From positions 1 to 40,326 of the IMG/VR virus record IMGVR_UViG_3300037422_000319: DNA of 40,326 nt. One strand, written 5' to 3'. The notes under the pieces are model-generated. The model ran no database searches. It was not told the origin of the DNA and was given only the letters and a program-made list of their open reading frames with translations. The position numbers were made by a program, and so were the translations under genes. Below are positions 19,338 to 40,326 of this stretch, one piece after another. The stretch is from a virus. The stretch's first letter is position 1; each line of letters starts with the position of its first letter.

Positions 19338-19368
19338 CTGCGCTGGGCTTTATTAGAGGTTATTAGAA

Positions 19369-19611: not shown

Positions 19612-19621
19612 CTTCGCTAGG
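19607..19621 (+). other. Short hairpin CCTAGC-ttc-GCTAGG overlapping the stop codon of the 80-aa gene
   Basis: 6-bp stem read directly. No U-tract, so not a confident terminator. Confidence 0.4.
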
Positions 19622-19629
19622 GGTTAAAC

Positions 19630-19674
19630 TTGACTTATACCACGTTTGTGGTATAGTGCCAACTGGAGTTGGCA
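19630..19674 (+). promoter_or_regulatory. Internal late promoter (TTGACT-N16-TATAGT) carrying two palindromes: ATACCAC-gttt-GTGGTAT in the spacer and GCCAACTGGAGTTGGCA at +1
   Basis: TTGACT at 19630-19635, palindrome A at 19637-19654, TATAGT at 19652-19657. Palindrome B at 19658-19674 is identical to 4565-4581. Confidence 0.65.
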
Positions 19675-19693
19675 GTTGTAGAAGGTTAAAATT

Positions 19694-20959
19694 ATGGCAG
19701 ATTTTGGATCAGCGCTATCGGGAGCAGTTTCAGGAGCTTCTGCAGGTTCAGCGGCGGGACCTTGGGGAACTGCAATTGGGGGAGTAGGAGGCCTTTTAGC
19801 AGGTTTACTCGGAGGAGGAGGACCTAGACCAGGCGAATTAGCAGCTAAAGCTGGCGGCTCTAACTCACAAATTCTAGGAGAAGCCTTTAGAAGCCCTCAG
19901 AGTGCAGAGCAACAGCAGCAAGTGATCGCTCAGCGAGTTTTGGCTGCGTACCCTAAATTGGGTACTCTTGAAAATGCTCTTAAATGGTATGCAGTTAGAA
20001 AAAAACTTGCTAATGAAGGCGGTAAAATAAGCAAGAAAGATTTAGAAGTTATCGCAGTTGTAGACTCTGCTCTATCCGAGCAAGGCATAAATATTGATAT
20101 GAGTAACCCCGATCAGCTTAAAAGTATATTCGGGGAACAAGGCGCGGCCTTTTTATCAACGCCAGTTCAAGATCTTATTACCATGAATCAGCAAGCAGTT
20201 CAAACTGCTAGGGAAATCGCTGCCCAGGCACCACAAATTTTACAAGAATTCAAAGCTGAAGCGGGTATAGAGCTGACTCCAGAACAGCAATTAGCTAAGG
20301 AGCAGAGGAGAAATCTATTGGTTTCCTCGATACTAGAACCGGCGAGATCAGAACTTGCATCCGCAGGCGCGACTGCAGAACGATCAGCTGCAGCTCGTGG
20401 ATTGACCTCCAGCCCGCTTTTAGAGCGCGATATTCTCAGAGAACGCGGTAAAATTGGAGCTGAAGCAGGCCGAACGGCTGCTCTTAGTATGGAAGATGCT
20501 AGACAAAAGGCACTTGCGCAATTGCCTGATGTCATCTCTAAGTCTATTGCCGCAGGCCTAACCCCAGAACAATATGTAAATCAAGTTGAAGGAGCAAGAG
20601 TACAGGCAGGAATGGGACAAGCTCAATTAGCTCAAGCGGGATTCCAGGGAGCTTCACAATTAGCTTTAGGTGAACGAGAATTGGCTATGAAGCCAGAATT
20701 AGCCAGAATTGGACAAGAATCTCAGTATGCTAAATTAGCTCAGCAAAAAAAGGGAGCAGAGGCGGAAGCCTTGGCAGGTTTGGGAGCTTCTGTTGAAACG
20801 GCTTTGAGTGGCGGTAAAAAAGATACAAAAGGAATGGCGACCGATGCTGAGGCTAATAAGTTTTTTGATTCAGCTGCAGAAGAGTATGATATTGACCAAG
20901 CCTCTAAAAATATAACCGCTGGCGTTATTAGACAGCCTAGAAATACGAAGGTACGATAA
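19694..20959 (+). CDS. Internal virion / ejection-like protein A (421 aa)
   Basis: Gly-rich hydrophobic N-terminus (GSALSGAVSGASAGSAAGPWGTAIGGVGGLLAGLLGGGG), then an Ala/Gln/Glu-rich helical body. Position after the tail protein. Confidence 0.5.
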   Translation: MADFGSALSGAVSGASAGSAAGPWGTAIGGVGGLLAGLLGGGGPRPGELAAKAGGSNSQILGEAFRSPQSAEQQQQVIAQRVLAAYPKLGTLENALKWYAVRKKLANEGGKISKKDLEVIAVVDSALSEQGINIDMSNPDQLKSIFGEQGAAFLSTPVQDLITMNQQAVQTAREIAAQAPQILQEFKAEAGIELTPEQQLAKEQRRNLLVSSILEPARSELASAGATAERSAAARGLTSSPLLERDILRERGKIGAEAGRTAALSMEDARQKALAQLPDVISKSIAAGLTPEQYVNQVEGARVQAGMGQAQLAQAGFQGASQLALGERELAMKPELARIGQESQYAKLAQQKKGAEAEALAGLGASVETALSGGKKDTKGMATDAEANKFFDSAAEEYDIDQASKNITAGVIRQPRNTKVR

Positions 20960-24709: not shown

Positions 24710-24731
24710 GCTAGCCCCTCGAGGGAACGAG

Positions 24732-24920
24732 ATGAAAGAGTATAAGGAAATGTCTAAGATTTGGCAGGACGAGGAAGACGAGGAAATGCTTAAAAACATT
24801 AAGTCCCCTACCCCAGTCCACTTTAAAGGCAAAACCTATTATCTCCTGCCTGAATCAGTCTGTATTCGCAGTATTAGAGGCTCCTCTGATTCGGAATTTT
24901 CGATCGTGGTTTTTAATTAA
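24732..24920 (+). CDS. Hypothetical protein (62 aa from MKEYKEMSK)
   Basis: Track ORF 24561..24920 trimmed. ATG 24732 follows the upstream stop (24709) and a GAGGGAA SD. Confidence 0.5.
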   Translation: MKEYKEMSKIWQDEEDEEMLKNIKSPTPVHFKGKTYYLLPESVCIRSIRGSSDSEFSIVVFN

Positions 24921-25267
24921 TGGCGGACGATAAAGACATATTGCAGGTGCTGGGGGAGATAACTGCGACTCAAAAGCTTCAACAGGAGGCCCTTAGGGAC
25001 ATTTCTGATACCTGTAGAGCCAATACCGAGACTTTAATAAAGAATACAGAACAATTAGAATACCACATTCGCCGCACCGACATCATAGAAGAAAAGCACG
25101 AAGGATTCATGATTCTAACCGATAAACGTCTGGATTTATTGGAGAATGACCGGAAAGCGCGGGTCGCCATCAAGAAGGCCCTCTGGAAAACACTAGGAAA
25201 AGCTTCCTTCTTAGCAGGGGCCATTGTAGCGATTATAGAGGCTATTAGGGCCTTAATGAGGCTGTAA
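24920..25267 (+). CDS. Tail-anchored membrane protein (coiled-coil N-terminus, C-terminal TM); possible lysis regulator or holin partner
   Basis: C-terminal KASFLAGAIVAIIEAIRALMRL hydrophobic segment. Adjacent to the holin-like gene at the end of the late operon. Confidence 0.4.
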   Translation: MADDKDILQVLGEITATQKLQQEALRDISDTCRANTETLIKNTEQLEYHIRRTDIIEEKHEGFMILTDKRLDLLENDRKARVAIKKALWKTLGKASFLAGAIVAIIEAIRALMRL

Positions 25268-25955: not shown

Positions 25956-26300
25956 TTAAAATCTTTTAATCCTATTACTCCAGTACAGTATATCTGCTTT
26001 TACTTTAAAATTCACACGTTTATAGCTTCCAAGATGGCCTACTGCCAAATGGCAATTAAGTCCTCCCTTTTTAGATTCACATAAAGTCACTAAATTTGAT
26101 ACTTTTAATTCTAAATCAGGAGCCATATGAAAGGGCTTAATATGATGTACTTCCAACTTTTTAGTGCCTTTACAAACGGCGCATCGCCCATTTTTACTTA
26201 AATGCGTGGCTCTGATTTTTGGCCATTTATTAGAACGCTTAGATCCCTTGGGAACACTGCCCCTAATCCGATCTCTAAGATGTTTTAGTAGCTGTTTCAC
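25956..26300 (-). CDS. HNH endonuclease
   Basis: CAVCKGTKKLEVHHIKPF...NLVTLCESKKGGLNCHLAVGH matches the C-x2-C...HH...N...C-x2-H HNH pattern. Track ORF extends to GTG 26387 but would overlap the clearly coding zinc-ribbon end of the upstream gene by 113 nt. GTG 26300 is proposed; the start is uncertain. Confidence 0.8.
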   Translation of the reverse strand: MKQLLKHLRDRIRGSVPKGSKRSNKWPKIRATHLSKNGRCAVCKGTKKLEVHHIKPFHMAPDLELKVSNLVTLCESKKGGLNCHLAVGHLGSYKRVNFKVKADILYWSNRIKRF

Positions 26301-26670
26301 GCTCTTTACACTTCTCACAACGTACTGAAATCCATCCTTTTCCGCCCAACTTTCCGGAGTTTCCACATAGTTCACATGTAATAGCACTAATTTTCTCAGC
26401 TAATTCAATAACGGCGTCCATCAAATCAGTTGATTTGTCAATATAAAATCTCAAGGTTCCGAATTTCTCTTTTACCTGGACAGCTACGCAATGAACCCCT
26501 TCAAGGTTTGATAAGTTAGTCAAGCGTTCCGAAAGAGTTCTAATTATGGGCTCCCAGCCGCTTCCGCACTCAAAACCCCAGCACATGCTGGTAGTTTGCA
26601 TATCGGCATGGCGAGCTTGGTAAAGCTCAGGAAAATCTCTTACTAAAGCCTCATCTAACTTTATTTTCAT
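26275..26670 (-). CDS. Hypothetical protein with KEKFGTLRFY motif and C-terminal CxxC...CxxC zinc ribbon
   Basis: MCWGFECGSGWEPII...VQVKEKFGTLRFY resembles a widespread phage protein family of unknown function. Also CELCG...CEKC. Confidence 0.6.
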   Translation of the reverse strand: MKIKLDEALVRDFPELYQARHADMQTTSMCWGFECGSGWEPIIRTLSERLTNLSNLEGVHCVAVQVKEKFGTLRFYIDKSTDLMDAVIELAEKISAITCELCGNSGKLGGKGWISVRCEKCKERETATKTS

Positions 26671-29347: not shown

Positions 29348-29515
29348 TTAAACATCCCAGTTATCCTCACTTAAACAATGAATGCAGTATAAAAAATCCC
29401 CATCATCTAACTTATCGCCACAATCTACGCAATATTTTTGGTCACAGGATTCGCAGAAGAGTTCCCCCTCACTAGTAGTAATTATTTCATCTCCACAATT
29501 GCAATACTTACGCAT
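29348..29515 (-). CDS. Zinc-ribbon mini-protein (55 aa), not in the ORF track
   Basis: TAATG overlap with the metallophosphoesterase stop. Translation: MRKYCNCGDEIITTSEGELFCESCDQKYCVDCGDKLDDGDFLYCIHCLSEDNWDV (four Cys pairs). Confidence 0.6.
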   Translation of the reverse strand: MRKYCNCGDEIITTSEGELFCESCDQKYCVDCGDKLDDGDFLYCIHCLSEDNWDV

Positions 29516-30210
29516 TACAGTTTCCCCGTCCAGCGTCCCCTTCGATTTAATTTCATAGGGATAAAAGTAGGAACTCCATTATTGATTACGCCAACTCCTA
29601 GAATTGGCTTATCCTTTAGAAGTTTACCGTAATTAAAAGCATATGCGTGGCGGTCAATAAGACACCCTACATTGAACCCATATAACAGGTACTCTGCATT
29701 AGCCCAGTACTGAATGCCAGCCCAAGAGTGGAAGTGACCAAATACGGTGCTCTTCATATTCTTAAGGGGCAGCTGGAAGGAGGCCATTTTTCCCCCGCCT
29801 GTAATAGCATCGCCGTGCTCATAGCGAACCCCGTCAATGTCCCAATTCTCTGCCCACTGCCAGCCCTTTGGGGCCTTTAAAAATTCTCTATAATCCCTGA
29901 GATAGGCCTTAGGAATGCCGTGTTTATAGGCCTTTCTAAAAATGCGGGACGTGTGATTAGACTCACAAAGCTTCATGTCTGGAAAAGCTTTATACCAATG
30001 TTTTAACTTTGCGAGAGAAGCGAGCAACTCATCGCCTGCCGACATACCATCCGGGTCATGGTCCCAATCCCCAAGCGCATGGTGGTCAATCTCGTCCCCC
30101 ACATTAACCACTACGTGGGGCTTTACTTTAGCTGCTACGGTTTTGACAAACTCTAGAGCATCCCGGTGCTCAAACGGAATCTGTAAGTCTGGTATTACAA
30201 GCACTCTCAT
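29515..30210 (-). CDS. Calcineurin-like metallophosphoesterase
   Basis: Motifs IPDLQIPFEH (D-x-H type), GDEID (GDxxD), ESNH (GNH), GHFH (GHxH). Confidence 0.8.
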   Translation of the reverse strand: MRVLVIPDLQIPFEHRDALEFVKTVAAKVKPHVVVNVGDEIDHHALGDWDHDPDGMSAGDELLASLAKLKHWYKAFPDMKLCESNHTSRIFRKAYKHGIPKAYLRDYREFLKAPKGWQWAENWDIDGVRYEHGDAITGGGKMASFQLPLKNMKSTVFGHFHSWAGIQYWANAEYLLYGFNVGCLIDRHAYAFNYGKLLKDKPILGVGVINNGVPTFIPMKLNRRGRWTGKL

Positions 30211-30416
30211 CGCTGTTCCCCGGGTCCCTTAACTAAATAGGGGAGACGTCTGATTACTGGGACTTCAATCCCCCTTCTGGTACATTCCTCTTGTATTAAG
30301 AGAAGTACAAGGATAGAGACTTCTTTTTCAGGCCCACTCATATGCCTGTTCATTATATTAGCCAAAGTGTATAAATGTTTAGACTCTATCCTAGAGTTAC
30401 TCAGCCTGACTTTCAA
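30207..30416 (-). CDS. Hypothetical protein (69 aa)
   Basis: Track ORF; overlapping start and stop with neighbours. Confidence 0.5.
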   Translation of the reverse strand: MKVRLSNSRIESKHLYTLANIMNRHMSGPEKEVSILVLLLIQEECTRRGIEVPVIRRLPYLVKGPGEQR

Positions 30417-30759
30417 ATCGGATATTTAAAAAATCCATTCGTTCCGATTTTCTTCCGCCACTAGATATATTTTCAGAACGAGTGCCTGCAACATACCCAG
30501 AAGCCTGCATGTCAACCACAAACCTTGCTACAACGGCTCGGTCAATATGAGTAACGTTAACTTCAATCTGATTAACTCCAGTATCAATAGCCTGAAGAAC
30601 TAGTTTTGTAATAGTTCTTCTAAAAGCCTGCTCGGCTCGTTTGGAGGCTTCTTCTGCTAGAAGAATCTCTGGCTCTTTCTTGGGCTCGGCGGCCTCGGCG
30701 GTCGCATTCGCTTCTGCTACCATGTCCTCAATCGGGCGTTCAATTGCTCTTTTAGTCAT
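30397..30759 (-). CDS. Hypothetical protein (120 aa)
   Basis: Track ORF in the operon. Confidence 0.55.
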   Translation of the reverse strand: MTKRAIERPIEDMVAEANATAEAAEPKKEPEILLAEEASKRAEQAFRRTITKLVLQAIDTGVNQIEVNVTHIDRAVVARFVVDMQASGYVAGTRSENISSGGRKSERMDFLNIRFESQAE

Positions 30760-30771
30760 CGGTCTCTCCTA

Positions 30772-31326
30772 TTAAGCTGCGCGGTCAAATTCTGGCGGCG
30801 CAATAAAAAGTTCGAAAATACTTCTCACTTCTGAAGCTATATCAAGTCTGGAACGAAGTAGCGATACAAAACTTGCAACTGCCCCGTCATCCTGCCCCTC
30901 TACCTCTAAGAAGAGCCTCCGATCAGAATCACCCTCTACTTTATAAAAGGCACATTCCAATTTAAAGCCTTCATAGTTAAGCTTATACAACATATAAGTC
31001 TTACTAATTTCTCCGAGAGGGTCCCCAAGAACAGACCTAAAAAATCCCTTAGGGTATTCCACATCTGTTATAAACTCATGCTCGAGACGGTCAATATTGT
31101 TGCCCTTATCCTTTGTCTTTACTGTAACTAAGGTTTCTCTTTGCCCCTCTGTACGCCTAACTCTAAGAAATTGGGCCTCTCCATAAGATCGAAAATAAGT
31201 ATCCGTATCCATGTATAAAGACGTGTCTGTAGTAATAACATCAATAGATGGGATACCCTCAATCGCTACCCTAAGATTCTCTAGAGCTGAAAATAAGCTA
31301 TCCTGGCCTCTAACTACAAACTTCAT
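30772..31326 (-). CDS. CYTH-like (triphosphate tunnel metalloenzyme / class IV adenylate cyclase fold) protein, divergent
   Basis: FLRVRRTEGQRETLVTVKTKDKGNNIDRLEHEFITDV and RRLFLEVEG resemble CYTH strands (lRiR...lT.K....R.E.E and fvEiE). The N-terminal ExExK is replaced by KFVVR. Confidence 0.4.
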   Translation of the reverse strand: MKFVVRGQDSLFSALENLRVAIEGIPSIDVITTDTSLYMDTDTYFRSYGEAQFLRVRRTEGQRETLVTVKTKDKGNNIDRLEHEFITDVEYPKGFFRSVLGDPLGEISKTYMLYKLNYEGFKLECAFYKVEGDSDRRLFLEVEGQDDGAVASFVSLLRSRLDIASEVRSIFELFIAPPEFDRAA

Positions 31327-31766
31327 TTGTTCCTCCCAGATACTCCATTAGGATCAATAGCCCCAATTGGTATTAGAAAAGCCTGCGGTGCTTCTCCAGG
31401 ATCTGCTATATCCTGTGTGGAGGCTTTTTCTAATTCTCGTAACTTTAATTCTAACTGAGCTAAAACATTCCAGGCTTCGTGGGCTTGGTGAAGAAGGCCT
31501 GACTGCGGGTCATACTCTTCTCCTCGGTGACGGCTATTTTGATGGCGTCCTTGAGCATCAGCGTAACGAGATTGGCCATTTGGGACTTGGAGCCAGCCGC
31601 TATCGCTATACTTAATCGAGCCCATGGTGCCAACTTTAACGACTTCTTGAAAGGCCCTAGCAAAATCTTTAAGTACCAAGTTGAAGCGTAGTTTGCCTGC
31701 ATCTAACTTAGCCCCTGGGGTGTGGGCATCATAGCCTAGGGGGTCTTTTTCAGAATTTCTTTCCAT
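31323..31766 (-). CDS. DUF5664 / dATP-dGTP diphosphohydrolase N-terminal-domain-like protein
   Basis: KLDAGKLRFNLV...VVKVGTMGSIKY...RYADAQGRH...EYDPQSGLLHQAHEAWNVLAQLEL matches the K.D.GK...Ga.KY...A..RH...D.eSG..H.a...N.l pattern. Start trimmed to ATG 31766 (GAGGA upstream). Confidence 0.65.
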   Translation of the reverse strand: MERNSEKDPLGYDAHTPGAKLDAGKLRFNLVLKDFARAFQEVVKVGTMGSIKYSDSGWLQVPNGQSRYADAQGRHQNSRHRGEEYDPQSGLLHQAHEAWNVLAQLELKLRELEKASTQDIADPGEAPQAFLIPIGAIDPNGVSGRNK

Positions 31767-32079
31767 GGCGAATTCCTCGTGTTTTATTGTATTCAAGTTT
31801 TTTATCTATAATAGTTTCCAAGTCTAATTTTTTATACGCCGAGTAATCAAGTAAACGGATAACGGCATCTGCTATTTCAGAGCTTAGGCCTTTCAATTTT
31901 CCTGTAACAGGGTCTGCCCAAGTCTCTTCTTCGCCTTTACGAAGGCACTCAACCGCTTCAGCTAACTCAGTTACAACAAGCATGAGAGCCTCTGTATCAG
32001 TTTTCTTGAAACCTTCTTCGTACCAACCGGCCTCAACTGCTAGTTTATGGCATTTATCTTGTAATTCGTTTAATCTCAT
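31750..32079 (-). CDS. MazG-like nucleoside triphosphate pyrophosphohydrolase
   Basis: ALMLVVTELAEAVECLRKG ... LSSEIADAVIRLLDYSAYKKLDLETIIDKKLEYNKTR shows the all-alpha NTP-PPase E-x2-E ... E-x2-D signature. Confidence 0.75.
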   Translation of the reverse strand: MRLNELQDKCHKLAVEAGWYEEGFKKTDTEALMLVVTELAEAVECLRKGEEETWADPVTGKLKGLSSEIADAVIRLLDYSAYKKLDLETIIDKKLEYNKTRGIRHGKKF

Positions 32080-32552
32080 TTAATAACCTTTAAGAACAGT
32101 ATGCCACGATTGCGGTACATAGGCTCACAATCTCCGGCATAGTCATCATCGATTGCTACAAATTTTTCATTTGGATGAGCTTCCATAAGTTCTTTAATTT
32201 TTTCAGATTTATACAAATGAGGTCCTCTCCAATCATTGTCCTCACGCATAATAACTGGGGCTTTAGGGAAGCAGTACTCTTCCAGCCAAGCTTCTGTTTC
32301 TTTTCTTTGACTCTCAGATCGTCCAGTTAAGTAATAAATAACATGGGGCTCTACGTCTTCAATGCCAATAAGTAGGTGACGAATTTCATCAATAGGCTCA
32401 TCCATATGTAATACATCTGGGTTATGAGCTTTATCTAACCACTGCTGAAAAGCCTTACGATCTTTTCTATCAGGAATGGCCCCAAACTTAGCGAATCGCT
32501 TCGTAACATCGGCACAAGTATTGTCTATGTCTACTATATAAATCACTTCCAA
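32076..32552 (-). CDS. HAD-superfamily phosphatase (nucleotidase / polynucleotide 3-prime-phosphatase-like)
   Basis: Motif I IVDIDNT (DxDxT), motif II YYLTGRS, motif III/IV K...VAIDDDY. Confidence 0.75.
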   Translation of the reverse strand: MEVIYIVDIDNTCADVTKRFAKFGAIPDRKDRKAFQQWLDKAHNPDVLHMDEPIDEIRHLLIGIEDVEPHVIYYLTGRSESQRKETEAWLEEYCFPKAPVIMREDNDWRGPHLYKSEKIKELMEAHPNEKFVAIDDDYAGDCEPMYRNRGILFLKVIK

Positions 32553-33992: not shown

Positions 33993-34622
33993 TTATTTGC
34001 CCTTGCCGGAGGCACTAAGTGCTCTTTTTAGTTCAGTGTAAGGAACCACATAAGTTACAGGTATAGGGTATCCCGTTCTGACAACTAATCCTATCACGCG
34101 TCCCGTTTCCTCGTCAACTACTGGACTACCGGAGTCGCCTGGAATAGCAACTGAGTGCAATGTGAAAAATCCACCCAGAGCTTCTTGTCCAAAGGAGCAA
34201 GGCATCTTATGCTGAACGGCAGAGCCGCCTCCATACCCCGCATGCCAGCAATTGGAATCAAATTCGGGGGCTTCTGTTGCGAGATCGAATGGGATGAGGT
34301 TGCGGGTATCGCCCTCTAGAATGGCCCAGTCGCGGTGATCTAATTCTTCCCCTTGATTAATTATCTTAAAATTAGTTGAGTACCCATCGGTAAATACCCC
34401 AAGAGAGAGCGCATTCCGTTCCTGCATACCCATAACACAATGCTTGGCAGTAGCAATTAAATTCTTTTTAATAACCCACGCGGTACAACTGTAGTTAAGA
34501 GAAAGGATATTCGGGACATTAGAAATCTCTTCAAAGCGGGTATAGTTAACTAGATGAACAGCTCCCGCTACAGCCAGAGTAGAGCTTATAAGAATGGATA
34601 AGACCAGATGCTTACTAATCAT
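33993..34622 (-). CDS. Secreted or anchored trypsin-like (S1/chymotrypsin fold) serine protease
   Basis: Signal-like MISKHLVLSILISSTLAVAGA. Catalytic TAKHC (His), HRDWAIL (Asp), GDSGSPV (Ser). ATG 34622 overlaps the polymerase stop (ATGATTAG); the track ORF extension to 34772 is rejected. Confidence 0.8.
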   Translation of the reverse strand: MISKHLVLSILISSTLAVAGAVHLVNYTRFEEISNVPNILSLNYSCTAWVIKKNLIATAKHCVMGMQERNALSLGVFTDGYSTNFKIINQGEELDHRDWAILEGDTRNLIPFDLATEAPEFDSNCWHAGYGGGSAVQHKMPCSFGQEALGGFFTLHSVAIPGDSGSPVVDEETGRVIGLVVRTGYPIPVTYVVPYTELKRALSASGKGK

Positions 34623-36561
34623 TTTTGATATTCGCGAGCGTCGTAACTTTTTTAATATCGCATTTAACTTCGACTTCAAGCTCGAGAGTTTTGTTAACAG
34701 TTTTGAGGGCTTCTTCGTAGATTTCTTTCGCATCGTCATACCTTCCTGGCGGATAAAAAAATGTAGTAGCATCGTGTGTATCCGGTAACCACGGCCTCAG
34801 TATAACATCGCGCTCCTTAGAAAGTCTACAAATTTCCATGACCCACATTACCAGTACGTCATGCCCGCCGCTCTGAATGAATCTATTCAATAAGTCTTTT
34901 TTAAATCTATCCGGTATAAATATAACTCTGCCTGCTGCATTAACTACATAACCTTGTTTATCATAAAGCTTCTTAAGTTTCTGCCCAAATTCTTCTACCT
35001 TTTTAAACTTACGCCAGTATGCTCGCACATGCCTTAAAGCTTCTTGAGGGGTAGTGGGATAACCATTAAACGTAAGTTGTCTAGCGATAGTATATTGAGT
35101 GCCTGTATATTGCAGGGCTAGGTGAATGATCTTACATATGTCTCGTAAAGACTTAAACTTTTTCTTGGCTTCATCAATGTCTTTAGATTGAGGATTGTAT
35201 TCATGTTGTAATTCAATATGATCTGGGAATATTTCTAGAGCCAGGTCCAGATAAATATCTCCTAGCCCATCTCTAAATACTTTAAGTAGAGTTTCATCAT
35301 CGCTGTAGTGGGCAGTTAGGCAAGGCTCTACTGCTTTTAAGTCTGCATGTATGCCTCCTTCATACTCATCAGGAACTGTGAAAGCTTGCATTATTAGCTC
35401 TTCTTTAAAAGGAGGGTTAAGTGTATTAGGACTAAAGCAAGCCAGCCTGCCAGATACAGTGCCGCAAATATTAAGAGGGGGATGTATGCTACCTTGCTCA
35501 TCAATACTTTCGAGGTACATTTTACAATATTTTGCGTTATCTAATTCTTTAATAATTCGAGCGAATAGCTGAGCGCCAGGATGCTGGTAGCGCCGTATTA
35601 CATCAGCCGCCGTTGAGGGTGCGCCCTTTTCAGTCACCTCTGTTATAGGAAGCCCCCATTTATCATATAGGAGCACCGCTCTCTGCTGGGTACTGCCGGG
35701 ATTAAAATCTCTATGATACCTATATATATTCAAATTCCGATTTACTCTACCCTTTTCAGTCTTTAGCATGGCGGAACCTTTTTTACTTTTACTGTAGGAC
35801 AATTCTGACTCAAGAGCCTCTATATCTGGAGCGTACTGTGTTCTAAGTTCGGTCTTAGTAGTAGCGGAGGCTTGTTCATAGTGCGATTTGGCTTGTAGGA
35901 GGGCCTTGGAGGAAAGAGGGATGCCCTGCTCCTCATAGCGTCTAAGCATGTCGTCATAGGCCATTCTATTTTGAATATAGGGTAAATAAGAGTACTTCTC
36001 GAAAAATGGCAGTAGTTTTTTATAGCCCAGGTAGGTGGAGTGTGCATCATAGCACGCGTATTCCGCTATTAAAGGCAGGTCGGCCATCCATATGTCTTTT
36101 CCTGGCTCGCCGCCTCGTGCCTTAATCTGCGCGTCGAGAATGGTCTTCTTGGACTCGGGCCAGCCCAGAAGGTCGGTTTGTAGTTTACCTAATGAAAACC
36201 CATGCATTAAGTCTTCGCGGTCGCTAAGCTGCCAGCCCAAACGAGTATCAAACTCCCAATTGGAGTTAATGCCAAACGTGTAATCGATCCAGTTTTTATC
36301 AAAGGCTCTATTGTGGCCTACCAACTTCCACTTAGAGAGGGGGGAAGCCATCGCTGACTTCCCTATAGAGGAATCTACTAGAGGAACATAAATCGCGTCA
36401 AAGCCTACTAGCTCATTGGAAGAAAAGGAAAATCCTATGAGGTTAGTGGAGGGGGTTCTAGGATACTTGCCCTTGGTTTCTATGTCGCACGCTATCGGTG
36501 TTCGTACATGGGCAGTTATCTCAGTTAGTTCCGCTAAATCTGAGACAACTTTCCATTTCAT
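34615..36561 (-). CDS. Family A DNA polymerase with 3-prime to 5-prime exonuclease domain
   Basis: Exo I ACDIET, Exo II GHNRAFDKNW, Exo III YACYDAHSTY. Pol motif A HADLKAVEP, motif B RDICKIIHLALQYTG, motif C SGGHDVL. Confidence 0.9.
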   Translation of the reverse strand: MKWKVVSDLAELTEITAHVRTPIACDIETKGKYPRTPSTNLIGFSFSSNELVGFDAIYVPLVDSSIGKSAMASPLSKWKLVGHNRAFDKNWIDYTFGINSNWEFDTRLGWQLSDREDLMHGFSLGKLQTDLLGWPESKKTILDAQIKARGGEPGKDIWMADLPLIAEYACYDAHSTYLGYKKLLPFFEKYSYLPYIQNRMAYDDMLRRYEEQGIPLSSKALLQAKSHYEQASATTKTELRTQYAPDIEALESELSYSKSKKGSAMLKTEKGRVNRNLNIYRYHRDFNPGSTQQRAVLLYDKWGLPITEVTEKGAPSTAADVIRRYQHPGAQLFARIIKELDNAKYCKMYLESIDEQGSIHPPLNICGTVSGRLACFSPNTLNPPFKEELIMQAFTVPDEYEGGIHADLKAVEPCLTAHYSDDETLLKVFRDGLGDIYLDLALEIFPDHIELQHEYNPQSKDIDEAKKKFKSLRDICKIIHLALQYTGTQYTIARQLTFNGYPTTPQEALRHVRAYWRKFKKVEEFGQKLKKLYDKQGYVVNAAGRVIFIPDRFKKDLLNRFIQSGGHDVLVMWVMEICRLSKERDVILRPWLPDTHDATTFFYPPGRYDDAKEIYEEALKTVNKTLELEVEVKCDIKKVTTLANIKND

Positions 36562-37183: not shown

Positions 37184-38065
37184 TTATTTTTCTCCTTTGT
37201 TATCATATTCTTGCATCCACTTATCAAAGGACAACTCGCCCTTATCGTAAGCATCGCAAGAGCCGCTCATAAGGCAATACCTTGCATCACAGCGGCTATA
37301 GGTTTTAGCTTTCAACTCTTCTTCATGAGGACGTACCCCAAGTTTTTTAGATTTGTTATCTAACTGAAGTTTCTCGTAATATCGCAATACATCTTGCTGA
37401 TTAAAAGGCAGCAACTTAACATCTCGGTCTGAATTCATGATAAAGAAATTATCCTCATCTTTACCAACTGCAAACCAGCGACGCTGAGGGGGGTATTTCT
37501 TTTTAGAATTGCCAATATACAAATCAACATGAAAGTAATTGCCTACACAAATTAGCCAGGTATCACGATTGAGCATGGTCATGTACGAGGCAGATTGAAC
37601 GCAATGCTTCATTTGAGGCCAGTTGCCTTCCCACGCTTTATAAACACTGAAAGGGGAAATCAATGACTTAGCTTCCATGCCCCCCAACTCTTTAGAATCA
37701 AAATCAGGGCGGCCTGACCACTCATCACCATTGGCCATAAGAATTTGATAATCCGGTTCGCGCTCAAACTCAACCCCTGCCTGAGTAAGCATTTTATCAA
37801 TTCTTAATTCATGACCAAACCCCGCCGCAAATGCTTCAATGTCATCCTTAGAGGGGGGAGTACCTAAACCCAATAGCCTAGCCTGAGCTTTACGAGCACA
37901 TGAGGTAGAGTAAGACCTGCCATCTTTAGTCAATGCCCCGCTACTTCCACCACGCAGTAACATAACGCTATCGCGATTCATTTGACGAGACTCTTGCTCA
38001 ACAGCTCTCTGAGCCTGCTTTTCAATCTCATCAATTCGATCCAATAACTTCATCAAAATTTGCAT
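37184..38065 (-). CDS. PD-(D/E)XK (Cas4/RecB-like) exonuclease with a C-terminal Cys cluster
   Basis: GRPDF...(12 aa)...MEAKS (D...ExK). C-terminal YSRCDARYCLMSGSCDAY plus N-terminal SCARK cysteines, as in Fe-S Cas4-type nucleases. First gene of the leftward replication operon. Confidence 0.7.
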   Translation of the reverse strand: MQILMKLLDRIDEIEKQAQRAVEQESRQMNRDSVMLLRGGSSGALTKDGRSYSTSCARKAQARLLGLGTPPSKDDIEAFAAGFGHELRIDKMLTQAGVEFEREPDYQILMANGDEWSGRPDFDSKELGGMEAKSLISPFSVYKAWEGNWPQMKHCVQSASYMTMLNRDTWLICVGNYFHVDLYIGNSKKKYPPQRRWFAVGKDEDNFFIMNSDRDVKLLPFNQQDVLRYYEKLQLDNKSKKLGVRPHEEELKAKTYSRCDARYCLMSGSCDAYDKGELSFDKWMQEYDNKGEK

Positions 38066-38175: not shown

Positions 38176-38205
38176 TTGCGGTCATGTGCCGCGCTGGGGT
38201 ATAAT
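38176..38205 (+). promoter_or_regulatory. Rightward promoter P3 (TTGCGG-N18-TATAAT) ending 6 nt before ATG 38212 (leaderless design)
   Basis: Consensus TATAAT at 38200-38205, then aacacc, then ATG. No SD. Confidence 0.5.
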
Positions 38206-38211
38206 AACACC

Positions 38212-38682
38212 ATGACAAAAAAGCCTCCTTCAACTATTAATCAGGCAACTTTAAAAAAGGTTCGAAAGTTTTATGTAGTAGAGGGTTTGACTCCAACGGC
38301 AATCACGGCTCAAATGCGCATGGAGTTGCAACGTGTTGTCGATATCATCGAGCAGCACAATCTTAGGGCTGAGCGGGAGCTTTATTTAGAGCAGAACCCC
38401 AATCTATCGGCGCTAGCCGCTTCCTCTTCCGAACTCCGTAGGATTCAAAATAAACAGCAATCCAGTCAAGAGATTACGGCTTCTGAGAGAAACTTCCTAA
38501 TGAAATATTTAGAGGCTGAAGGAGCGGGCTTGACTGACCAGGAGCAGTTCCAAAACTGGTCAAAGGAGAAATTAGATAAACGAATTGGCGAATTGCACTC
38601 TAAACTGTATCCTGCTCAAAGCTCGAAAACTGCTCCCAAATCATCTTCGAAAACTGAAACTGATCAATCGGGGAAATCTTAA
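38212..38682 (+). CDS. HTH-like putative regulator (157 aa); the only rightward gene between the two leftward operons
   Basis: N-terminal ATLKKVRKFYVVEGLTPTAITAQMRMELQRVVDIIEQ looks like a helix-turn-helix. C-terminus is low-complexity and Ser/Lys-rich. The track TTG start at 38176 is rejected (no SD; it lies inside the promoter). Confidence 0.55.
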   Translation: MTKKPPSTINQATLKKVRKFYVVEGLTPTAITAQMRMELQRVVDIIEQHNLRAERELYLEQNPNLSALAASSSELRRIQNKQQSSQEITASERNFLMKYLEAEGAGLTDQEQFQNWSKEKLDKRIGELHSKLYPAQSSKTAPKSSSKTETDQSGKS

Positions 38683-38794
38683 GTAGTCCCTGTCTAACCA
38701 ACTCAAAGGTTACGCCTAATTCAAAATATATTGGCTCCCCTGTCTTGAGAAAGGCCACGAGTCTAACAGTCTTACCTGTCATGTCTACTTTCAT
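38600..38794 (-). CDS. Hypothetical protein (64 aa); its 3-prime end overlaps the HTH gene convergently by 83 nt
   Basis: Track ORF. GAAGG lies 7 nt upstream of the ATG. Reality is uncertain because of the convergent overlap. Confidence 0.4.
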   Translation of the reverse strand: MKVDMTGKTVRLVAFLKTGEPIYFELGVTFELVRQGLLKISPIDQFQFSKMIWEQFSSFEQDTV

Positions 38795-38865: not shown

Positions 38866-39369
38866 TCACTCCCCAATCTCATCTGCCAAGCCAAGTTTAA
38901 CTGTTTCTTCTGCAGTTAAATACCAATCTTTATTCAGTTTAGCTCTTAGTTGTTTAAACGTAAAGCTAGGGATCTTTTTTCTAATTTGCTCTAAGTATAT
39001 CATATCAAGGCGGCCCTCTTCTTTAGCTGCATACCTAAGTTGCGATATTTGCTTTACTATTCCGTTATCGTCAACGGCTCCAATACTTCCGTGTAACATT
39101 ATCTTAGCATTCGGCATCACAATTCGTCTGTCAAATGCCTGAAGAATCAAAGAAGCCATAGACTGAGCTTCGCCGTATACAACTCCAGTAGTCCGTCCCT
39201 TCTGAGTTTTTATCGCATCATAGATAGCCATTCCTGCAGCAACCTCGCCTCCTTGTGAGTTTATGACTACATAGATGGGCTTCGATTTAGGCAATTCATA
39301 AAGTCGCCTAATAAATACTCGAGCTAAGCGATCATCTATATCACGGTCAAGATATAATATGTTTCTCAT
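38866..39369 (-). CDS. ClpP-like (S14 family) serine protease
   Basis: IYVVINSQGGEVAAGMAIYDAI...VYGEAQSMASLILQA...PNAKIMLHGS...KDWYLTAEETVKLGLADEI aligns with ClpP INSPGG / G.AaSM / imiHqP / rD.y...EA..yGliD, including Ser-His-Asp. Confidence 0.85.
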   Translation of the reverse strand: MRNILYLDRDIDDRLARVFIRRLYELPKSKPIYVVINSQGGEVAAGMAIYDAIKTQKGRTTGVVYGEAQSMASLILQAFDRRIVMPNAKIMLHGSIGAVDDNGIVKQISQLRYAAKEEGRLDMIYLEQIRKKIPSFTFKQLRAKLNKDWYLTAEETVKLGLADEIGE

Positions 39370-39733
39370 AGAACTCCCTTAGTATATCTTGTTTAAGAGG
39401 CACGTTATCCCTAAATTCTTTTTCAATTCCGTATTTTATGGCTAGCAATAATCCATATAAGTCTGCTTTTTCCTCAATATATTCAGCATAAAATGGAAGA
39501 GATTCGTAGCCTAGCGGGTCAATTATCTCAATTTCATTGTCTATATAATGCCCTAGCTCATGAAGCAAAACTAAGCATTTGTTTTTATAACTTAAAAGAG
39601 AACTAATTAAAATTTCCCGAAAAGGCTTAAAAACTCCTGCCATTCCATGCCAGTGTAAGAAGGCGTTTTCACATATACATATCTTTAGGCTCCAACTTAA
39701 TCGCAATTTCCAATATAAAAAAATCCATCTCAT
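39347..39733 (-). CDS. ImmA/IrrE-like zinc metalloprotease (HEXXH)
   Basis: LVLLHELGHYIDNE ... EEKADLYGLLLAIKYGI (HExxH plus a downstream E-x-x-A-D/N helix), as in the ImmA/IrrE family. Confidence 0.6.
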   Translation of the reverse strand: MRWIFLYWKLRLSWSLKICICENAFLHWHGMAGVFKPFREILISSLLSYKNKCLVLLHELGHYIDNEIEIIDPLGYESLPFYAEYIEEKADLYGLLLAIKYGIEKEFRDNVPLKQDILREFYEKHIIS

Positions 39734-39921
39734 TTTAATTTATCCTTATAGAACGTTTCACGTTCCTCGAAGAAATTGAAGACATCATCTTTTATTTCTT
39801 GCTCATCTGTAGAGCTACCTAATCCCATTTTAAATCCATCTTTCCATAGGTCAATAGTCACTTGCAGAAATTCATCCCTAAGTTTTCTAAGCCTACTTAT
39901 TTTTTCTAGAGTTGTCCGCAT
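39730..39921 (-). CDS. Hypothetical protein (63 aa)
   Basis: Track ORF; ATGA-type overlap with the ImmA-like gene. Confidence 0.5.
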   Translation of the reverse strand: MRTTLEKISRLRKLRDEFLQVTIDLWKDGFKMGLGSSTDEQEIKDDVFNFFEERETFYKDKLK

Positions 39922-40190: not shown

Positions 40191-40326
40191 CTATTTGGCA
40201 TAGTACTCTCTAACCATTTTCAAAAGCATCTTGACGGCAACAGACCAGACAGCAGCCCGGGCAGCAGACCAGGCAGCAGACTCGGCAGCAAACTCGGCAG
40301 AAGACTCGGCAGCAGCCCGGGCAGCA
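40191..40326 (-). CDS. 3-prime end of the Ala-repeat protein gene (duplicate of the 1-127 copy plus the last 3 codons including the stop)
   Basis: Frame carried from 1..465 across the circular junction gives ...REYYAK-TAG, with the stop at 40191-40193. Confidence 0.7.
   Translation of the reverse strand, partial: AARAAAESSAEFAAESAAWSAARAAVWSVAVKMLLKMVREYYAK
40200..40326. repeat. Second copy of the 127-nt terminal repeat
   Basis: Identical to 1-127. Confidence 0.95.

What the first reader, a model, noticed from the sequence alone, without database searches (positions are those of the whole stretch)
38866..39733. Overlapping ImmA/IrrE-like metalloprotease and ClpP-like serine protease genes in the early operon, far from the head genes
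The HEXXH protein (LLHELGHYI...EEKADLYG) and a well-conserved ClpP-like protein (Ser-His-Asp context intact) overlap by 23 nt. They sit on the opposite strand from the portal/scaffold/capsid module and are separated from it by the rest of the leftward early operon (about 5.5 kb across the circular junction), so a prohead-protease role is not the obvious reading. The head module has a scaffold but no protease gene of its own.

ImmA-type proteases normally cleave a cognate repressor in temperate elements, yet no integrase or repressor is evident. The pair could be an early-expressed proteolytic module aimed at host proteins (defence sensors, repressors, or ClpX/ClpA hijacking). Alternatively it could be an unconventional, distantly encoded capsid maturation protease.
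Basis: partly seen in the sequence, partly recalled or inferred. Interest (0 to 1): 0.65.

Follow-up and report, generated by a model that had tools for sequence, protein, structure and literature searches.

The report
Two unlinked accessory phage protease genes
Two real protease genes, a stripped-down ClpP-like serine peptidase and a tiny ImmA/IrrE-like zinc peptidase, overlap by 23 bases in the leftward (probably early) operon next to the replication genes of a new phage, but they are not a conserved pair and each is an ordinary, if uncharacterised, kind of phage accessory gene.

Summary
Both ORFs lie on the minus strand: a 167-aa ClpP-like gene at 38866-39369 and a 128-aa HEXXH gene at 39347-39733. 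They overlap by 23 nt. They sit in the leftward operon of a circular ~40.2-kb phage, away from the terminase/portal/scaffold/capsid block.

The ClpP-like protein is a confident ClpP fold (pLDDT 93, TM ~0.9) with an intact Ser70/His93/Asp148 triad. It is only the catalytic core. It lacks the axial gating loops and helix A, most ClpX/ClpA docking-pocket residues, and the C-terminal extension seen in head-module ClpP-type proteases. It groups with an uncultured-phage ClpP-like clade whose nearest members lie beside DNA-metabolism genes, not with prohead proteases or cellular ClpP.

The HEXXH protein is a near-orphan minimal M78-like zincin (motifs intact, below Pfam threshold). It is absent from the only close relative of this phage, which keeps the ClpP-like gene in the same slot. 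It is the lowest-GC stretch of the genome. No such gene lies near any of 84 other ClpP-like loci.

So the "pair" is an accidental adjacency. A non-capsid role for the ClpP-like gene is favoured, and ClpX/ClpA hijacking is disfavoured. This is a new member of known kinds, of modest interest.

The parts
38866..39369 (-). ClpP-like serine peptidase gene, 167 aa. It is the bare catalytic core, with head and handle but no axial loops, no helix A and no C-terminal extension.
   Evidence: Pfam CLP_protease 2e-29. AF2 pLDDT 93.3. Foldseek top hits are ClpP structures, TM 0.87-0.91, rmsd 1.5 A. 59% identical syntenic orthologue in L001.
39160..39162 (-). Codon of catalytic Ser70 (GEAQSMAS).
   Evidence: Invariant column in A5. 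Aligns with E. coli Ser97. Codon checked.
39091..39093 (-). Codon of catalytic His93 (IMLHGS).
   Evidence: Invariant in A5. Aligns with E. coli His122. Codon checked.
38926..38928 (-). Codon of catalytic Asp148 (NKDWYLTAEE).
   Evidence: Invariant in A5. Aligns with E. coli Asp171. Codon checked.
39347..39733 (-). Minimal M78 (ImmA/IrrE/CapP)-like zinc peptidase gene, 128 aa. It is a lineage-specific accessory gene.
   Evidence: phrog_87 metallo-protease 2.2e-8. Pfam Peptidase_M78 18.2 bits, below the cutoff of 22. Only two homologues among 1.84e9 representatives. Absent from L001. GC 0.326, the lowest 387-nt stretch of the window.
39548..39562 (-). HELGH zinc-binding/catalytic motif (H58-E59-L-G-H62).
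   Evidence: Invariant in A1. Codons checked. Aligns with HELGH of CapP 7T5T (weak, E=1.1).
39473..39475 (-). Glu87 of 'EEKAD', the putative third zinc ligand (ExxA[DN] motif of M78 peptidases).
   Evidence: Invariant in A1. Aligned with 'EAQAD' of CapP. The ligand role is inferred from family knowledge.
39347..39369 (-). 23-nt out-of-frame overlap between the HEXXH 3' end and the ClpP-like 5' end.
   Evidence: The ClpP-like start matches the L001 orthologue start (MKTLYIDR vs MRNILYLDR).
39374..39380 (-). AAGGGAG Shine-Dalgarno for the ClpP-like gene, lying inside the HEXXH ORF.
   Evidence: Upstream sequence printed.
39743..39747 (-). AAGGA Shine-Dalgarno for the 128-aa HEXXH start. That ATG overlaps the stop of the 63-aa ORF (ATGA at 39730-39733).

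Best explanation
These are two independent accessory protease genes that happen to abut. They are not a module.

**(1) The ClpP-like gene**
- It is a catalytically competent ClpP-fold serine peptidase and a long-standing resident of this phage lineage's leftward operon.
- It lies just upstream of the recombination/replication genes: a Cas4-like nuclease (assigned by motif only), an SSB-like protein, PolA and a RuvC-like resolvase.
- It belongs with an uncultured-phage clade of non-canonical ClpP-like proteins whose nearest members sit among DNA-metabolism genes.
- Here it is reduced to the catalytic core. There are no axial gating loops, no helix A, a remodelled ATPase-docking pocket and no procapsid-targeting tail.
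- I infer that it assembles through its retained handle into ClpP-like rings with a permanently open pore.
- I infer that it acts in the cytoplasm during the replication phase as an ATPase-independent peptidase on unfolded or flexible proteins and peptides, from host or phage.
- On this reading it is neither the capsid maturation protease nor a partner of host ClpX/ClpA.

**(2) The HEXXH gene**
- It is a rare minimal M78-type zinc endopeptidase, present in this phage but not in its sister and probably acquired horizontally.
- By analogy with ImmA, IrrE and CapP it most likely makes a single site-specific cut in a DNA-binding regulator. That target is not encoded next to it, so it would belong to the host or to a co-resident element.

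**Shown:** gene reality, fold, motifs, truncations, synteny, absence of the HEXXH gene from the relative, and lack of co-occurrence.

**Inferred:** oligomer state, open pore, timing, substrates, and the direction of the indel.
For: **ClpP-like gene**
- Fold and triad.
- Core-only architecture: the maximal ORF adds only 3 codons upstream, and the same N-terminus occurs in L001.
- The window has 3 residues before the equivalent of E. coli R27/V28, against 18-32 in the viral clade and 28-36 in canonical ClpP. It has 4 residues after the core, against 45-209 in head-module proteases.
- Pocket positions diverge: F49E, Y62V, F82T, L189G (E. coli sequence verified identical to 1TYF).
- The handle helix is retained (H104-132).
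- Removing the N-terminal loops makes isolated ClpP degrade unfolded proteins (statement in bioRxiv 10.1101/2023.03.01.530711).
- Phylogeny: in the NJ tree the window plus L001 is sister to the viral clade. Bootstraps give 76/100 with that clade, 5/100 with head-module proteases and 2/100 with canonical ClpP.
- Neighbours of the nearest viral homologues: DNA pol exonuclease subunit, ribonucleotide reductase, primase, exonuclease, ERCC4 nuclease and TerL.
- Among 134 neighbours of 36 loci, no MCP, portal or scaffold family is in the top 25.
- Precedents in cultured phages: Mycobacterium phage Nebkiss gp119 lies between a RepA-like helicase and a DnaQ-like exonuclease, while that phage's head module is portal-scaffold-MCP without a protease. 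The Myxococcus phage Mx1 ClpP-like gene lies directly after the primase-helicase.
- Podovirus-type MCP with no propeptide. Jasmine has the same layout.

**HEXXH gene**
- Motifs. PHROG match.
- Rarity.
- Absence from L001. Lowest GC in the window.
- No adjacent HTH. No co-occurrence with ClpP-like genes.
Against: - The best PHROG hits for the ClpP-like protein are families labelled 'head maturation protease' (phrog_94, 4.7e-33).
- NCBIfam Clp_rel_HeadMat scores almost as well as the ClpP subfamily models (82.7 vs 88.9 bits, all below cutoff).
- Prohead ClpP-type proteases also lack gating loops.
- No other head protease is encoded, so a trans-encoded maturation role is not excluded.
- Bootstrap support for the viral-clade placement is moderate (76%), from NJ on 158 columns.
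- Loss of helix A could prevent ring assembly altogether.
- Timing ('early') is assumed from gene order only; promoter and terminator scans found nothing above chance.
- Only one relative of the phage exists, so insertion versus deletion of the HEXXH gene cannot be polarised. The neighbouring 63-aa gene is also low-GC (0.339).
- M78 membership rests on motifs and one PHROG hit. Pfam is below threshold, the AF2 model is poor (pLDDT 58), and the fold search was empty.
Confidence: 0.55

Rival explanations
1. The ClpP-like protein is an unconventional, trans-encoded capsid maturation protease. It would be made from the leftward operon, enter procapsids, and trim scaffold, portal or MCP.
For: PHROG top hits are 'head maturation protease' families. 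NF045542 Clp_rel_HeadMat matches at 82.7 bits. No protease gene lies in the head block. Like prohead proteases, it lacks ClpP gating loops.
Against: - The score is below the NF045542 cutoff of 120.
- The MCP is podovirus-type, aligned from residue 3, next to a separate scaffold candidate. By established knowledge, T7- and P22-type heads mature without proteolysis.
- There is no C-terminal targeting extension (4 residues vs 45-209).
- It groups with head-module references in only 5/100 bootstraps.
- The four head-module references in the residue alignment have Glu where this protein, canonical ClpP and the viral clade have the catalytic Asp (alignment-dependent).
- The gene sits with replication genes on the opposite strand, and this placement is conserved in L001.
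Confidence: 0.2
2. The M78-like and ClpP-like genes form a co-operating early two-protease module aimed at host proteins. For example, M78 clips a regulator or defence protein and the ClpP-like enzyme degrades the fragments.
For: The genes are adjacent with a 23-nt overlap, which implies co-transcription and possibly coupled translation. Both have intact active sites. Iyer et al. 2021 (PMC7824862) propose that patchily distributed phage ClpP targets the host.
Against: - The sister phage keeps the ClpP-like gene without the M78-like gene.
- The two other family members have no ClpP neighbour.
- 0 of 591 genes around 84 ClpP-like loci are M78-like.
- The ClpP-like gene has its own Shine-Dalgarno.
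- The GC of the HEXXH gene is an outlier.
Confidence: 0.08
3. The ClpP-like protein works with host AAA+ unfoldases (ClpX/ClpA/ClpC), or co-assembles with host ClpP rings, to redirect or poison host regulated proteolysis.
For: It is a true ClpP fold with a handle region and triad. Y60, I90, F112 and L114 equivalents stay aromatic or hydrophobic (Y, V, I, M). Phages are known to manipulate host Clp proteolysis, for example the SPO1 adaptor-like protein for ClpCP (PMC6873191, listed).
Against: - The axial loops (E. coli residues 1-19) that contact ATPase pore-2 loops, and helix A, are missing.
- F49, Y62, F82 and L189 equivalents are E, V, T and G.
- The chain ends 4 residues after the core, and R170 is K.
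- All NCBIfam ClpP equivalog cutoffs are missed by a wide margin, e.g. TIGR00493 73.9 vs 308.6.
Confidence: 0.12
4. The HEXXH ORF is a decaying or non-functional passenger, with no protease activity.
For: It is a near-orphan below the Pfam threshold. The structure model is poor. It is dispensable in the sister phage. Its C-terminus is shorter than in the two homologues.
Against: - The 128-codon ORF is intact in the most AT-rich (stop-prone) part of the genome.
- It has a good Shine-Dalgarno and an ATGA coupling to the upstream gene.
- H58, E59, H62 and E87, plus 20 other positions, are invariant across proteins only 33-35% identical.
Confidence: 0.1

Closest known systems
ClpP-like protease of Gaia-type mycobacteriophages (Nebkiss gp119 / Gaia gp118) and the Clp protease-like protein of Myxococcus phage Mx1
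   Same: The ClpP-family gene is encoded inside the DNA replication module. In Nebkiss it lies between a RepA-like helicase and a DnaQ-like exonuclease, and in Mx1 directly after the primase-helicase. Nebkiss has a portal-scaffold-MCP head block without a protease. The function is likewise untested.
   Different: Sequence identity is only 35-38% over part of the length. In the NJ tree Nebkiss sits beside the head-module proteases and Mx1 beside canonical ClpP, not with the window. Both are longer (232-233 and 187 aa) and keep N-terminal regions.
Uncultured-phage non-canonical ClpP-like clade ('Group A' here: P0002-P0034 and IMG/VR loci L003-L082)
   Same: These are the best sequence relatives outside L001 (33-45% identity in IMG/VR, up to 44% for P0002-P0005). 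They share 'ILQAxD-RxxMPN' without the canonical two-residue insert, and share the triad. They were the sister group in 76/100 bootstraps. The nearest loci have DNA-metabolism neighbours.
   Different: Group A proteins are 190-250 aa, with a distinctive N-terminal segment of about 20-30 residues and an insert before the first helix. The window and L001 proteins have lost both. No cultured phage carries a close Group A member.
ClpP-family prohead (head maturation) proteases, e.g. Xanthomonas phage Xp10 8R, Gordonia phage Denise gp4 (NCBIfam NF045542)
   Same: Same fold family. They lack the cellular ClpP gating apparatus. PHROG groups them together with this protein.
   Different: These genes lie between portal and MCP, are 245-670 aa, and (for the four references in the residue alignment) have 45-209 residues after the core. 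The window protein scores below the family cutoff and groups with them in only 5/100 bootstraps.
Cellular ClpP (E. coli ClpP, PDB 1TYF)
   Same: Ser-His-Asp triad, head plus handle architecture, and TM-score ~0.9 to solved ClpPs.
   Different: Residues 1-25 (axial loops and helix A) are absent and the IGF/LGF pocket is not conserved. It is not an equivalog by any NCBIfam model. About 30% identity.
ImmA (ICEBs1 and phage anti-repressor proteases), IrrE (Deinococcus) and CapP (CBASS regulator), i.e. Peptidase_M78
   Same: HEXXH followed about 25 residues later by ExxA[DN]xΦ. Its small size fits the core M78 domain. The only PDB sequence hit is CapP 7T5T, aligned on exactly these motifs. P0092 weakly matches PADLOC capP.
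   Different: It is below the Pfam gathering score. It has no adjacent HTH/XRE substrate gene and no sensor or C-terminal domain (ImmA, IrrE and CapP are larger). It is carried by a phage in which no lysogeny genes were found among the ORFs scanned.
ClpP genes of jumbo phages (Iyer et al. 2021, PMC7824862; Atu_ph07 gp676, PMC6102473)
   Same: Patchy distribution that does not follow virion type; these authors hypothesise anti-host use.
   Different: Those are near-canonical full-length ClpPs, often accompanied by phage ClpX, ClpA or ClpS. In the tree, Atu_ph07 falls inside the canonical group. This phage is 40 kb, and no Clp-type ATPase or adaptor appeared among the ORFs scanned.

Membership tests
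ClpP / peptidase S14 superfamily (Pfam PF00574) | Score above the Pfam gathering threshold | tested here: met
   103.2 bits vs cutoff 20.2, E=2e-29, model positions 17-179 of 182.
ClpP / peptidase S14 superfamily (Pfam PF00574) | Ser-His-Asp catalytic triad at the conserved positions | tested here: met
   S70, H93 and D148 are invariant in A5 and align with E. coli S97, H122 and D171.
ClpP / peptidase S14 superfamily (Pfam PF00574) | ClpP fold (head domain plus handle helix) | tested here: met
   AF2 pLDDT 93.3 with handle helix 104-132. Foldseek TM 0.87-0.91 to ClpP structures.
Cellular ATP-dependent ClpP (orthologue of E. coli ClpP; TIGR00493 and related equivalogs) | Equivalog score cutoffs | tested here: not met
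   TIGR00493 73.9 vs 308.6; NF001368 88.9 vs 249; all others also below cutoff.
Cellular ATP-dependent ClpP (orthologue of E. coli ClpP; TIGR00493 and related equivalogs) | N-terminal axial gating loops (E. coli residues 1-19) and helix A | tested here: not met
   Only 3 residues precede the equivalent of E. coli R27/V28. The maximal ORF cannot extend further. The L001 orthologue has the same N-terminus.
Cellular ATP-dependent ClpP (orthologue of E. coli ClpP; TIGR00493 and related equivalogs) | Conserved hydrophobic pocket for IGF/LGF loops of ClpX/ClpA | tested here: not met
   L23 and L24 are absent. L48Y, F49E, Y62V, F82T and L189G, while the canonical ClpPs in the same alignment keep L/L/L/F-Y/Y/F-Y. 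The residue list comes from established ClpP literature and was recalled, not fully verified here.
Cellular ATP-dependent ClpP (orthologue of E. coli ClpP; TIGR00493 and related equivalogs) | Heptameric or tetradecameric self-compartmentalised assembly | not testable with these tools
   No multimer prediction or experiment was available. The handle is retained, but helix A is missing.
ClpP-related phage head maturation protease (NCBIfam NF045542) | Family score cutoff | tested here: not met
   82.7 bits vs cutoff 120.
ClpP-related phage head maturation protease (NCBIfam NF045542) | Gene located in the head module, between portal and scaffold/MCP | tested here: not met
   The gene is on the opposite strand, with the replication genes. 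All five reference proteases lie between portal and MCP.
ClpP-related phage head maturation protease (NCBIfam NF045542) | C-terminal extension or scaffold-like domain for incorporation into procapsids | tested here: not met
   4 residues after the core vs 45-209 in the four references placed in the residue alignment.
ClpP-related phage head maturation protease (NCBIfam NF045542) | Cleaves capsid or scaffold proteins in proheads | not testable with these tools
   This needs virion or procapsid proteomics. Indirectly, the MCP aligns to the podovirus MCP model from residue 3, so it has no propeptide.
Peptidase M78 (ImmA/IrrE/CapP; Pfam PF06114) | HEXXH motif plus a downstream Glu in an ExxA[ND] motif | tested here: met
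   H58-E59-L-G-H62 and E87-E-K-A-D are invariant in the three family members and align with the CapP motifs.
Peptidase M78 (ImmA/IrrE/CapP; Pfam PF06114) | Score above the Pfam gathering threshold | tested here: not met
   18.2 bits vs 22. Two of the three family members match at E<=1. PHROG phrog_87 'metallo-protease' matches at E=2.2e-8.
Peptidase M78 (ImmA/IrrE/CapP; Pfam PF06114) | Adjacent cognate HTH (XRE/CI-type) repressor substrate | tested here: not met
   The flanking 63-, 73-, 64- and 168-aa ORFs have no HTH family in Pfam or PHROGs. Neighbours of the two homologues have none either.
Peptidase M78 (ImmA/IrrE/CapP; Pfam PF06114) | Zincin-like fold | tested here: inconclusive
   AF2 with 3 sequences gave pLDDT 58. 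Foldseek found no hit with E<4.

The most novel reading that the evidence does not exclude
The 167-aa protein, conserved in this lineage, is a naturally gateless, adaptor-independent ClpP core. It would self-assemble into open-pored rings and indiscriminately shred nascent or unfolded host proteins during replication. That would make it a phage-encoded natural counterpart of ADEP-activated or N-terminally deleted ClpP, used for host shut-off or amino-acid recycling. The wider uncultured 'Group A' clade would then be a phage-specific family of ATPase-independent ClpP enzymes. The M78-like gene would be a separate, recently acquired anti-repressor.
Probability: 0.15. Interest if true: 0.65.

Novelty: new member of a known kind. 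Interest (0 to 1): 0.3.

Why it matters
ClpP-like genes outside the head module recur in unrelated phages: Gaia-type mycobacteriophages, Mx1, jumbo phages, and a large uncultured clade. None has a demonstrated function.

This 167-aa version is about the smallest natural ClpP core seen here, with an intact triad. That makes it a convenient test case for whether such proteins are ungated, ATPase-independent peptidases, which bears on how phages reshape the host proteome.

It also warns against automatic annotation. PHROG labels would call this gene a head maturation protease in a phage whose podovirus-type capsid probably needs none.

The M78-like gene adds a very rare minimal branch to the ImmA/IrrE/CapP family, found here with no lysogeny genes detected among the scanned ORFs. 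The practical conclusion is that adjacency and overlap alone do not make a module.

Tried and rejected
- **Nucleotide search.** A search of the 36.0-40.3 kb region against GenBank phages found no match.
- **tblastn with the HEXXH protein against phages.** No match even at E<=1.
- **IMG/VR and metagenome scans for more relatives of the phage.**
  - IMG/VR scan with the 293-aa protein: nothing.
  - Metagenome scan with the PolA alignment: nothing.
  - IMG/VR scan with the PolA alignment: one 22% hit.
  - Metagenome scan with the ClpP alignment: two 29% hits.
  - The lineage is therefore only the window plus L001, and the indel cannot be polarised.
- **IMG/VR scan with the HEXXH alignment.** 600 pattern matches, none confirmed.
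- **Third large protein search, with the HEXXH profile.** It returned the same 3 proteins.
- **AF2 and Foldseek for the HEXXH protein.** The model was poor (pLDDT 58) and the hits meaningless.
- **PDB searches for the HEXXH protein.** The single-sequence search gave only a spurious ABC-transporter hit. The profile search gave only CapP at E=1.1.
- **PADLOC.** Nothing for either gene.
- **Promoter and terminator scan of 37.9-40.3 kb.** Counts equalled shuffled expectation.
- **DNA alignment of the window and L001 around the indel.** Too diverged to define breakpoints.
- **M78-ClpP fusion by frameshifting in the 23-nt overlap.** Considered and rejected. The ClpP-like frame is +1 and no slippery motif is seen. 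The ClpP-like gene has its own SD. The L001 orthologue starts at the same residue without any upstream M78 gene.
- **N-terminal truncation caused by the HEXXH insertion.** Considered and rejected, because L001 has the same N-terminus without the insertion.
- **PDB searches of the 421-aa late ORF and the 293-aa nuclease-like ORF.** Nothing found.
Full report
**1. The observation**

The window is a circularly assembled phage contig. Its first 127 nt are identical to its last 127 nt, so the unique length is about 40,199 bp.

On the minus strand there is a 167-aa ORF at 38866-39369 and a 128-aa ORF at 39347-39733. They overlap by 23 nt in different frames.

The 128-aa ORF starts with an ATG that overlaps the TGA of the upstream 63-aa ORF (ATGA). 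It has an AAGGA Shine-Dalgarno 9 nt upstream. The 167-aa ORF has its own AAGGGAG inside the 3' end of the HEXXH ORF.

A gene caller had chosen a 98-aa form of the HEXXH protein (P0091). The two distant homologues align from query residue 6-8, so the 128-aa form is preferred.

Both genes lie in the long leftward operon. On the other strand lie TerL (5296-6666), the portal (6878-8740), a 256-aa highly charged helical protein in the scaffold position (8780-9550) and the major capsid protein (9556-10749). No protease family was found in that block.

**2. The ClpP-like protein**

*Family, triad and fold*
- Pfam CLP_protease matches at E=2e-29, but only from model position 17.
- In a 32-sequence alignment the invariant columns include S70, H93 and D148. 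These align with E. coli ClpP S97, H122 and D171. The E. coli sequence I used was verified as 193/193 identical to PDB 1TYF.
- AlphaFold2 with this alignment gives pLDDT 93.3, with the long handle helix at 104-132.
- Foldseek finds solved ClpPs at TM 0.87-0.91 and rmsd about 1.5 A.

So it is a true ClpP fold with an intact triad.

*It is only the core*
- The ORF cannot be extended upstream by more than three codons.
- Only 3 residues precede the equivalent of E. coli R27/V28, against 28-36 in canonical ClpPs. The axial gating loops (residues 1-19) and helix A are therefore absent.
- It ends 4 residues after the last core motif.
- Canonical docking-pocket positions are changed: L48Y, F49E, Y62V, F82T, L189G. 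The ring-sensor R170 is K. The cellular ClpPs in the same alignment conserve these positions.
- Every NCBIfam ClpP equivalog cutoff is missed by a wide margin, and so is the cutoff of the ClpP-related head-maturation model (82.7 vs 120).

**3. Its relatives**

The only close relative is P0001 (59% identity), on a 7.7-kb JGI metagenome contig, L001. L001 is syntenic with window positions 32.0-40.2 kb, gene for gene. Its orthologue has the same truncated N-terminus.

Beyond that, the homologues fall into two groups.
- **Group A.** A large set of viral and metagenomic ClpP-like proteins of 190-250 aa. They have a non-canonical N-terminus and the shared signature 'ILQAxD-RxxMPN'.
- **Canonical cellular ClpPs.**

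In a neighbour-joining tree of 144 sequences, the window plus L001 is sister to Group A. Five head-module ClpP-type proteases form a separate group. In 100 bootstraps on 46 taxa, the window pair joined Group A 76 times, the head-module group 5 times and the canonical group 2 times.

Group A has no close cultured representative.

**4. Genomic context of relatives**

The nearest IMG/VR loci place the ClpP-like gene next to the following:

| Locus | Neighbour |
|---|---|
| L007 | DNA polymerase exonuclease subunit |
| L003 | ribonucleotide reductase |
| L016 | primase |
| L049 | exonuclease |
| L008 | metallophosphoesterase |
| L017 (large marine group) | between an ERCC4-type nuclease and TerL |

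An aggregate PHROG scan of 134 neighbours from 36 non-redundant loci showed TerL (5 members), HNH endonucleases and ERCC4 nuclease. No capsid, portal or scaffold family was among the 25 commonest.

In cultured phages the same arrangement exists.
- Mycobacterium phage Nebkiss gp119 lies between a RepA-like helicase and a DnaQ-like exonuclease. That phage's head block is portal-scaffold-MCP with no protease.
- Myxococcus phage Mx1 has its ClpP-like gene directly after the primase-helicase.

By contrast, bona fide head-module ClpP-type proteases all lie between portal and MCP. The examples were Xp10 8R, Denise gp4, phiCs5676-1, IME1354_01 and a Vibrio C-like fusion. They are 245-670 aa. The four in the residue alignment have 45-209 residues after the core and carry Glu at the column of the catalytic Asp (alignment-dependent).

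**5. Is a prohead protease needed here?**

The MCP passes the NCBIfam 'capsid_maj_Podo' cutoff (118.6 vs 80 bits). It aligns from residue 3 to model position 1, so it has no N-terminal propeptide.

Its only detectable cultured relatives are Arthrobacter phage Jasmine and kin. They have the same terminase, portal, scaffold-position gene and MCP layout without a protease. From established knowledge of T7- and P22-type assembly, such heads mature without proteolysis.

This evidence, together with sections 2-4, makes the maturation role the less likely reading. I put it at about 0.2. It cannot be excluded without proteomics.

**6. The HEXXH protein**

*Sequence evidence*
- Pfam Peptidase_M78 matches below threshold (18.2 vs 22 bits).
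- PHROG phrog_87 'metallo-protease' matches at 2.2e-8.
- An exhaustive HMMER search of 1.84 billion representative proteins found only two relatives, P0092 and P0093, at 33-35% identity. A profile search of 5.8 billion proteins found the same ones.
- In the three-way alignment H58, E59, H62 and E87 (in ExxAD), plus 20 other positions, are invariant.
- The only PDB sequence hit of the family profile is CapP (7T5T), aligned on exactly HELGHYI...E..ADL, but at E=1.1.
- P0092 weakly matches PADLOC capP.

*Structural evidence*

The structure prediction was poor (pLDDT 58) and the fold search uninformative.

I therefore call it a probable minimal M78-like zincin, not a proven family member.

**7. 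The two genes are not a module**

- In L001 the homologue of the 63-aa gene is followed, after 10 nt, by the ClpP-like gene. There is no HEXXH gene and no remnant of one.
- The HEXXH gene has GC 0.326 against 0.427 for the genome. It is the lowest-GC 387-nt stretch of the window; 0.25% of windows are as low. The conserved 63-aa neighbour is also low (0.339).
- The contigs of P0092 and P0093 carry no ClpP-like gene. One has a DnaB-like helicase fragment nearby.
- Among 591 genes within +/-4 positions of the ClpP-like gene in 84 loci, none has an M78-type motif or matches the family HMM.
- No HTH or repressor family was found in the four flanking small ORFs.
- No integrase or repressor appeared in the other leftward ORFs scanned. 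ORFs 13974-25267 were not scanned.

**8. Most likely mechanism**

*ClpP-like protein.* Shown: an intact catalytic core with a handle, no gate, no canonical docking pocket and no capsid-targeting tail, conserved with the replication genes.

Inferred: it forms ClpP-like rings whose pores are constitutively open. It would then act without an ATPase on unfolded or flexible polypeptides in the infected cell.

This inference rests on the known behaviour of N-terminally truncated ClpP, as stated in bioRxiv 10.1101/2023.03.01.530711. It agrees with the anti-host proposal made for patchily distributed jumbo-phage ClpPs (Iyer et al. 2021, PMC7824862). Loss of helix A could compromise assembly, which is the main uncertainty.

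*HEXXH protein.* By analogy with ImmA, IrrE and CapP it most likely cuts a DNA-binding regulator encoded elsewhere, in the host or a co-resident element. This is an inference from family behaviour only.

**9. Novelty and verdict**

Each gene is a new, divergent member of a known kind.
- ClpP-like genes in phage replication modules are already annotated, and a host-directed role has already been hypothesised.
- M78 peptidases are common phage accessory genes.

The overlap is real but not evidence of functional coupling. The most interesting residue is the extreme minimalism of the ClpP core and the existence of an uncultured, uncharacterised viral ClpP-like clade.

Interest is 0.3.

Noticed in passing
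window 1-127 and 40200-40326: The first and last 127 nt are identical, so the window is a circularly assembled contig with a unique length of about 40,199 bp.
   Followed up: yes
window 36-127 / 40235-40326; ORF from 420 (minus strand) across the junction to about 40190: A 12-nt tandem repeat (CGGCAGCAGACC, 7.7 copies) is coding. It lies in a 142-aa junction-spanning minus-strand ORF and encodes an Ala-rich repeat (AARAAAESSAEFAAESAAWSAARAA). No family was assigned.
   Followed up: partly
window 33993-34772 (-): This is a third protease gene in the same operon. It is a trypsin-fold serine protease (Pfam Trypsin_2, 6.5e-12) with His/Asp/Ser motifs (TAKHC, DWAIL, GDSGSP) and an N-terminal basic stretch plus a hydrophobic helix, so it is probably membrane-anchored or exported. 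Its ORF overlaps the 3' end of PolA. It is conserved in L001 (55%) and weakly resembles the protease part of PADLOC RT-Protease_XI.
   Followed up: partly
window 29515-32552 (-): A cluster of nucleotide-handling genes lies here:
- a HAD/PNKP-like phosphatase (32076-32552);
- PF18909, the dATP/dGTP diphosphohydrolase N-terminal domain, MazZ-like, 1e-24 (31323-31796);
- a CYTH-like gene, just below threshold (30772-31326);
- a weak, below-threshold Metallophos match (29515-30210).

This hints at nucleotide-pool manipulation or base modification. No PurZ-sized ORF was seen.
   Followed up: no
window 562-1002 (-); L001 285-605: A 146-aa protein carries a type IV pilin-like N-terminal methylation motif (Pfam N_methyl, 28 bits vs cutoff 21.2) in the leftward operon. 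The L001 106-aa protein has a similar 'KGFGMLE + hydrophobic' N-terminus. This may be a pilin or pseudopilin mimic.
   Followed up: no
window 38176-38682 (+) and 38600-38794 (-): A lone plus-strand 168-aa gene is embedded in the leftward operon. It converges on a 64-aa minus-strand ORF and overlaps it by 83 nt. Both are conserved in L001 (70% and 60%). Neither has a family. The 168-aa gene may be a regulator.
   Followed up: partly
window 37184-38065 (-): A 293-aa protein with no family or PDB hit shows a PD-(D/E)XK-like motif (GRPDFD...MEAKS) and a C-terminal Cys cluster (CDARYCLMSGSCDAYD), which suggests a Cas4/RecB-like nuclease. It is 66% identical in L001. The assignment is by eye only.
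   Followed up: partly
window 4854-5303 (+): A GNAT acetyltransferase (Pfam Acetyltransf_1, 1e-9) lies immediately upstream of, and overlapping, TerL, where a small terminase subunit would be expected.
   Followed up: no
window 1601-2236 (-), 2609-3379 (-), 25956-26387 (-): The leftward operon also contains a GP88-family protein (3.8e-38), a DUF932 protein (6.2e-30) and an HNH endonuclease. No tRNA genes are present in the window.
   Followed up: no
loci L003-L082, proteins P0002-P0034: A large, apparently uncultured-phage clade of non-canonical ClpP-like proteins ('Group A') was seen. Members share the N-terminus 'RDDxDKFxDY..RTIYxGS..GESGVD'. It has no cultured-phage member above about 37% identity. 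It includes a marine group with the fixed order ERCC4 nuclease, ClpP-like, TerL, and crAss-like contigs where the gene follows the two crAss ring proteins (L002).
   Followed up: partly
loci L090, L092-L094 (the four head-module ClpP-type proteases included in the alignment): In the MAFFT alignment all four head-module references have Glu at the column of the ClpP catalytic Asp171. The window protein, Group A and canonical ClpPs have Asp. This could be a discriminating feature, but it depends on the alignment.
   Followed up: no
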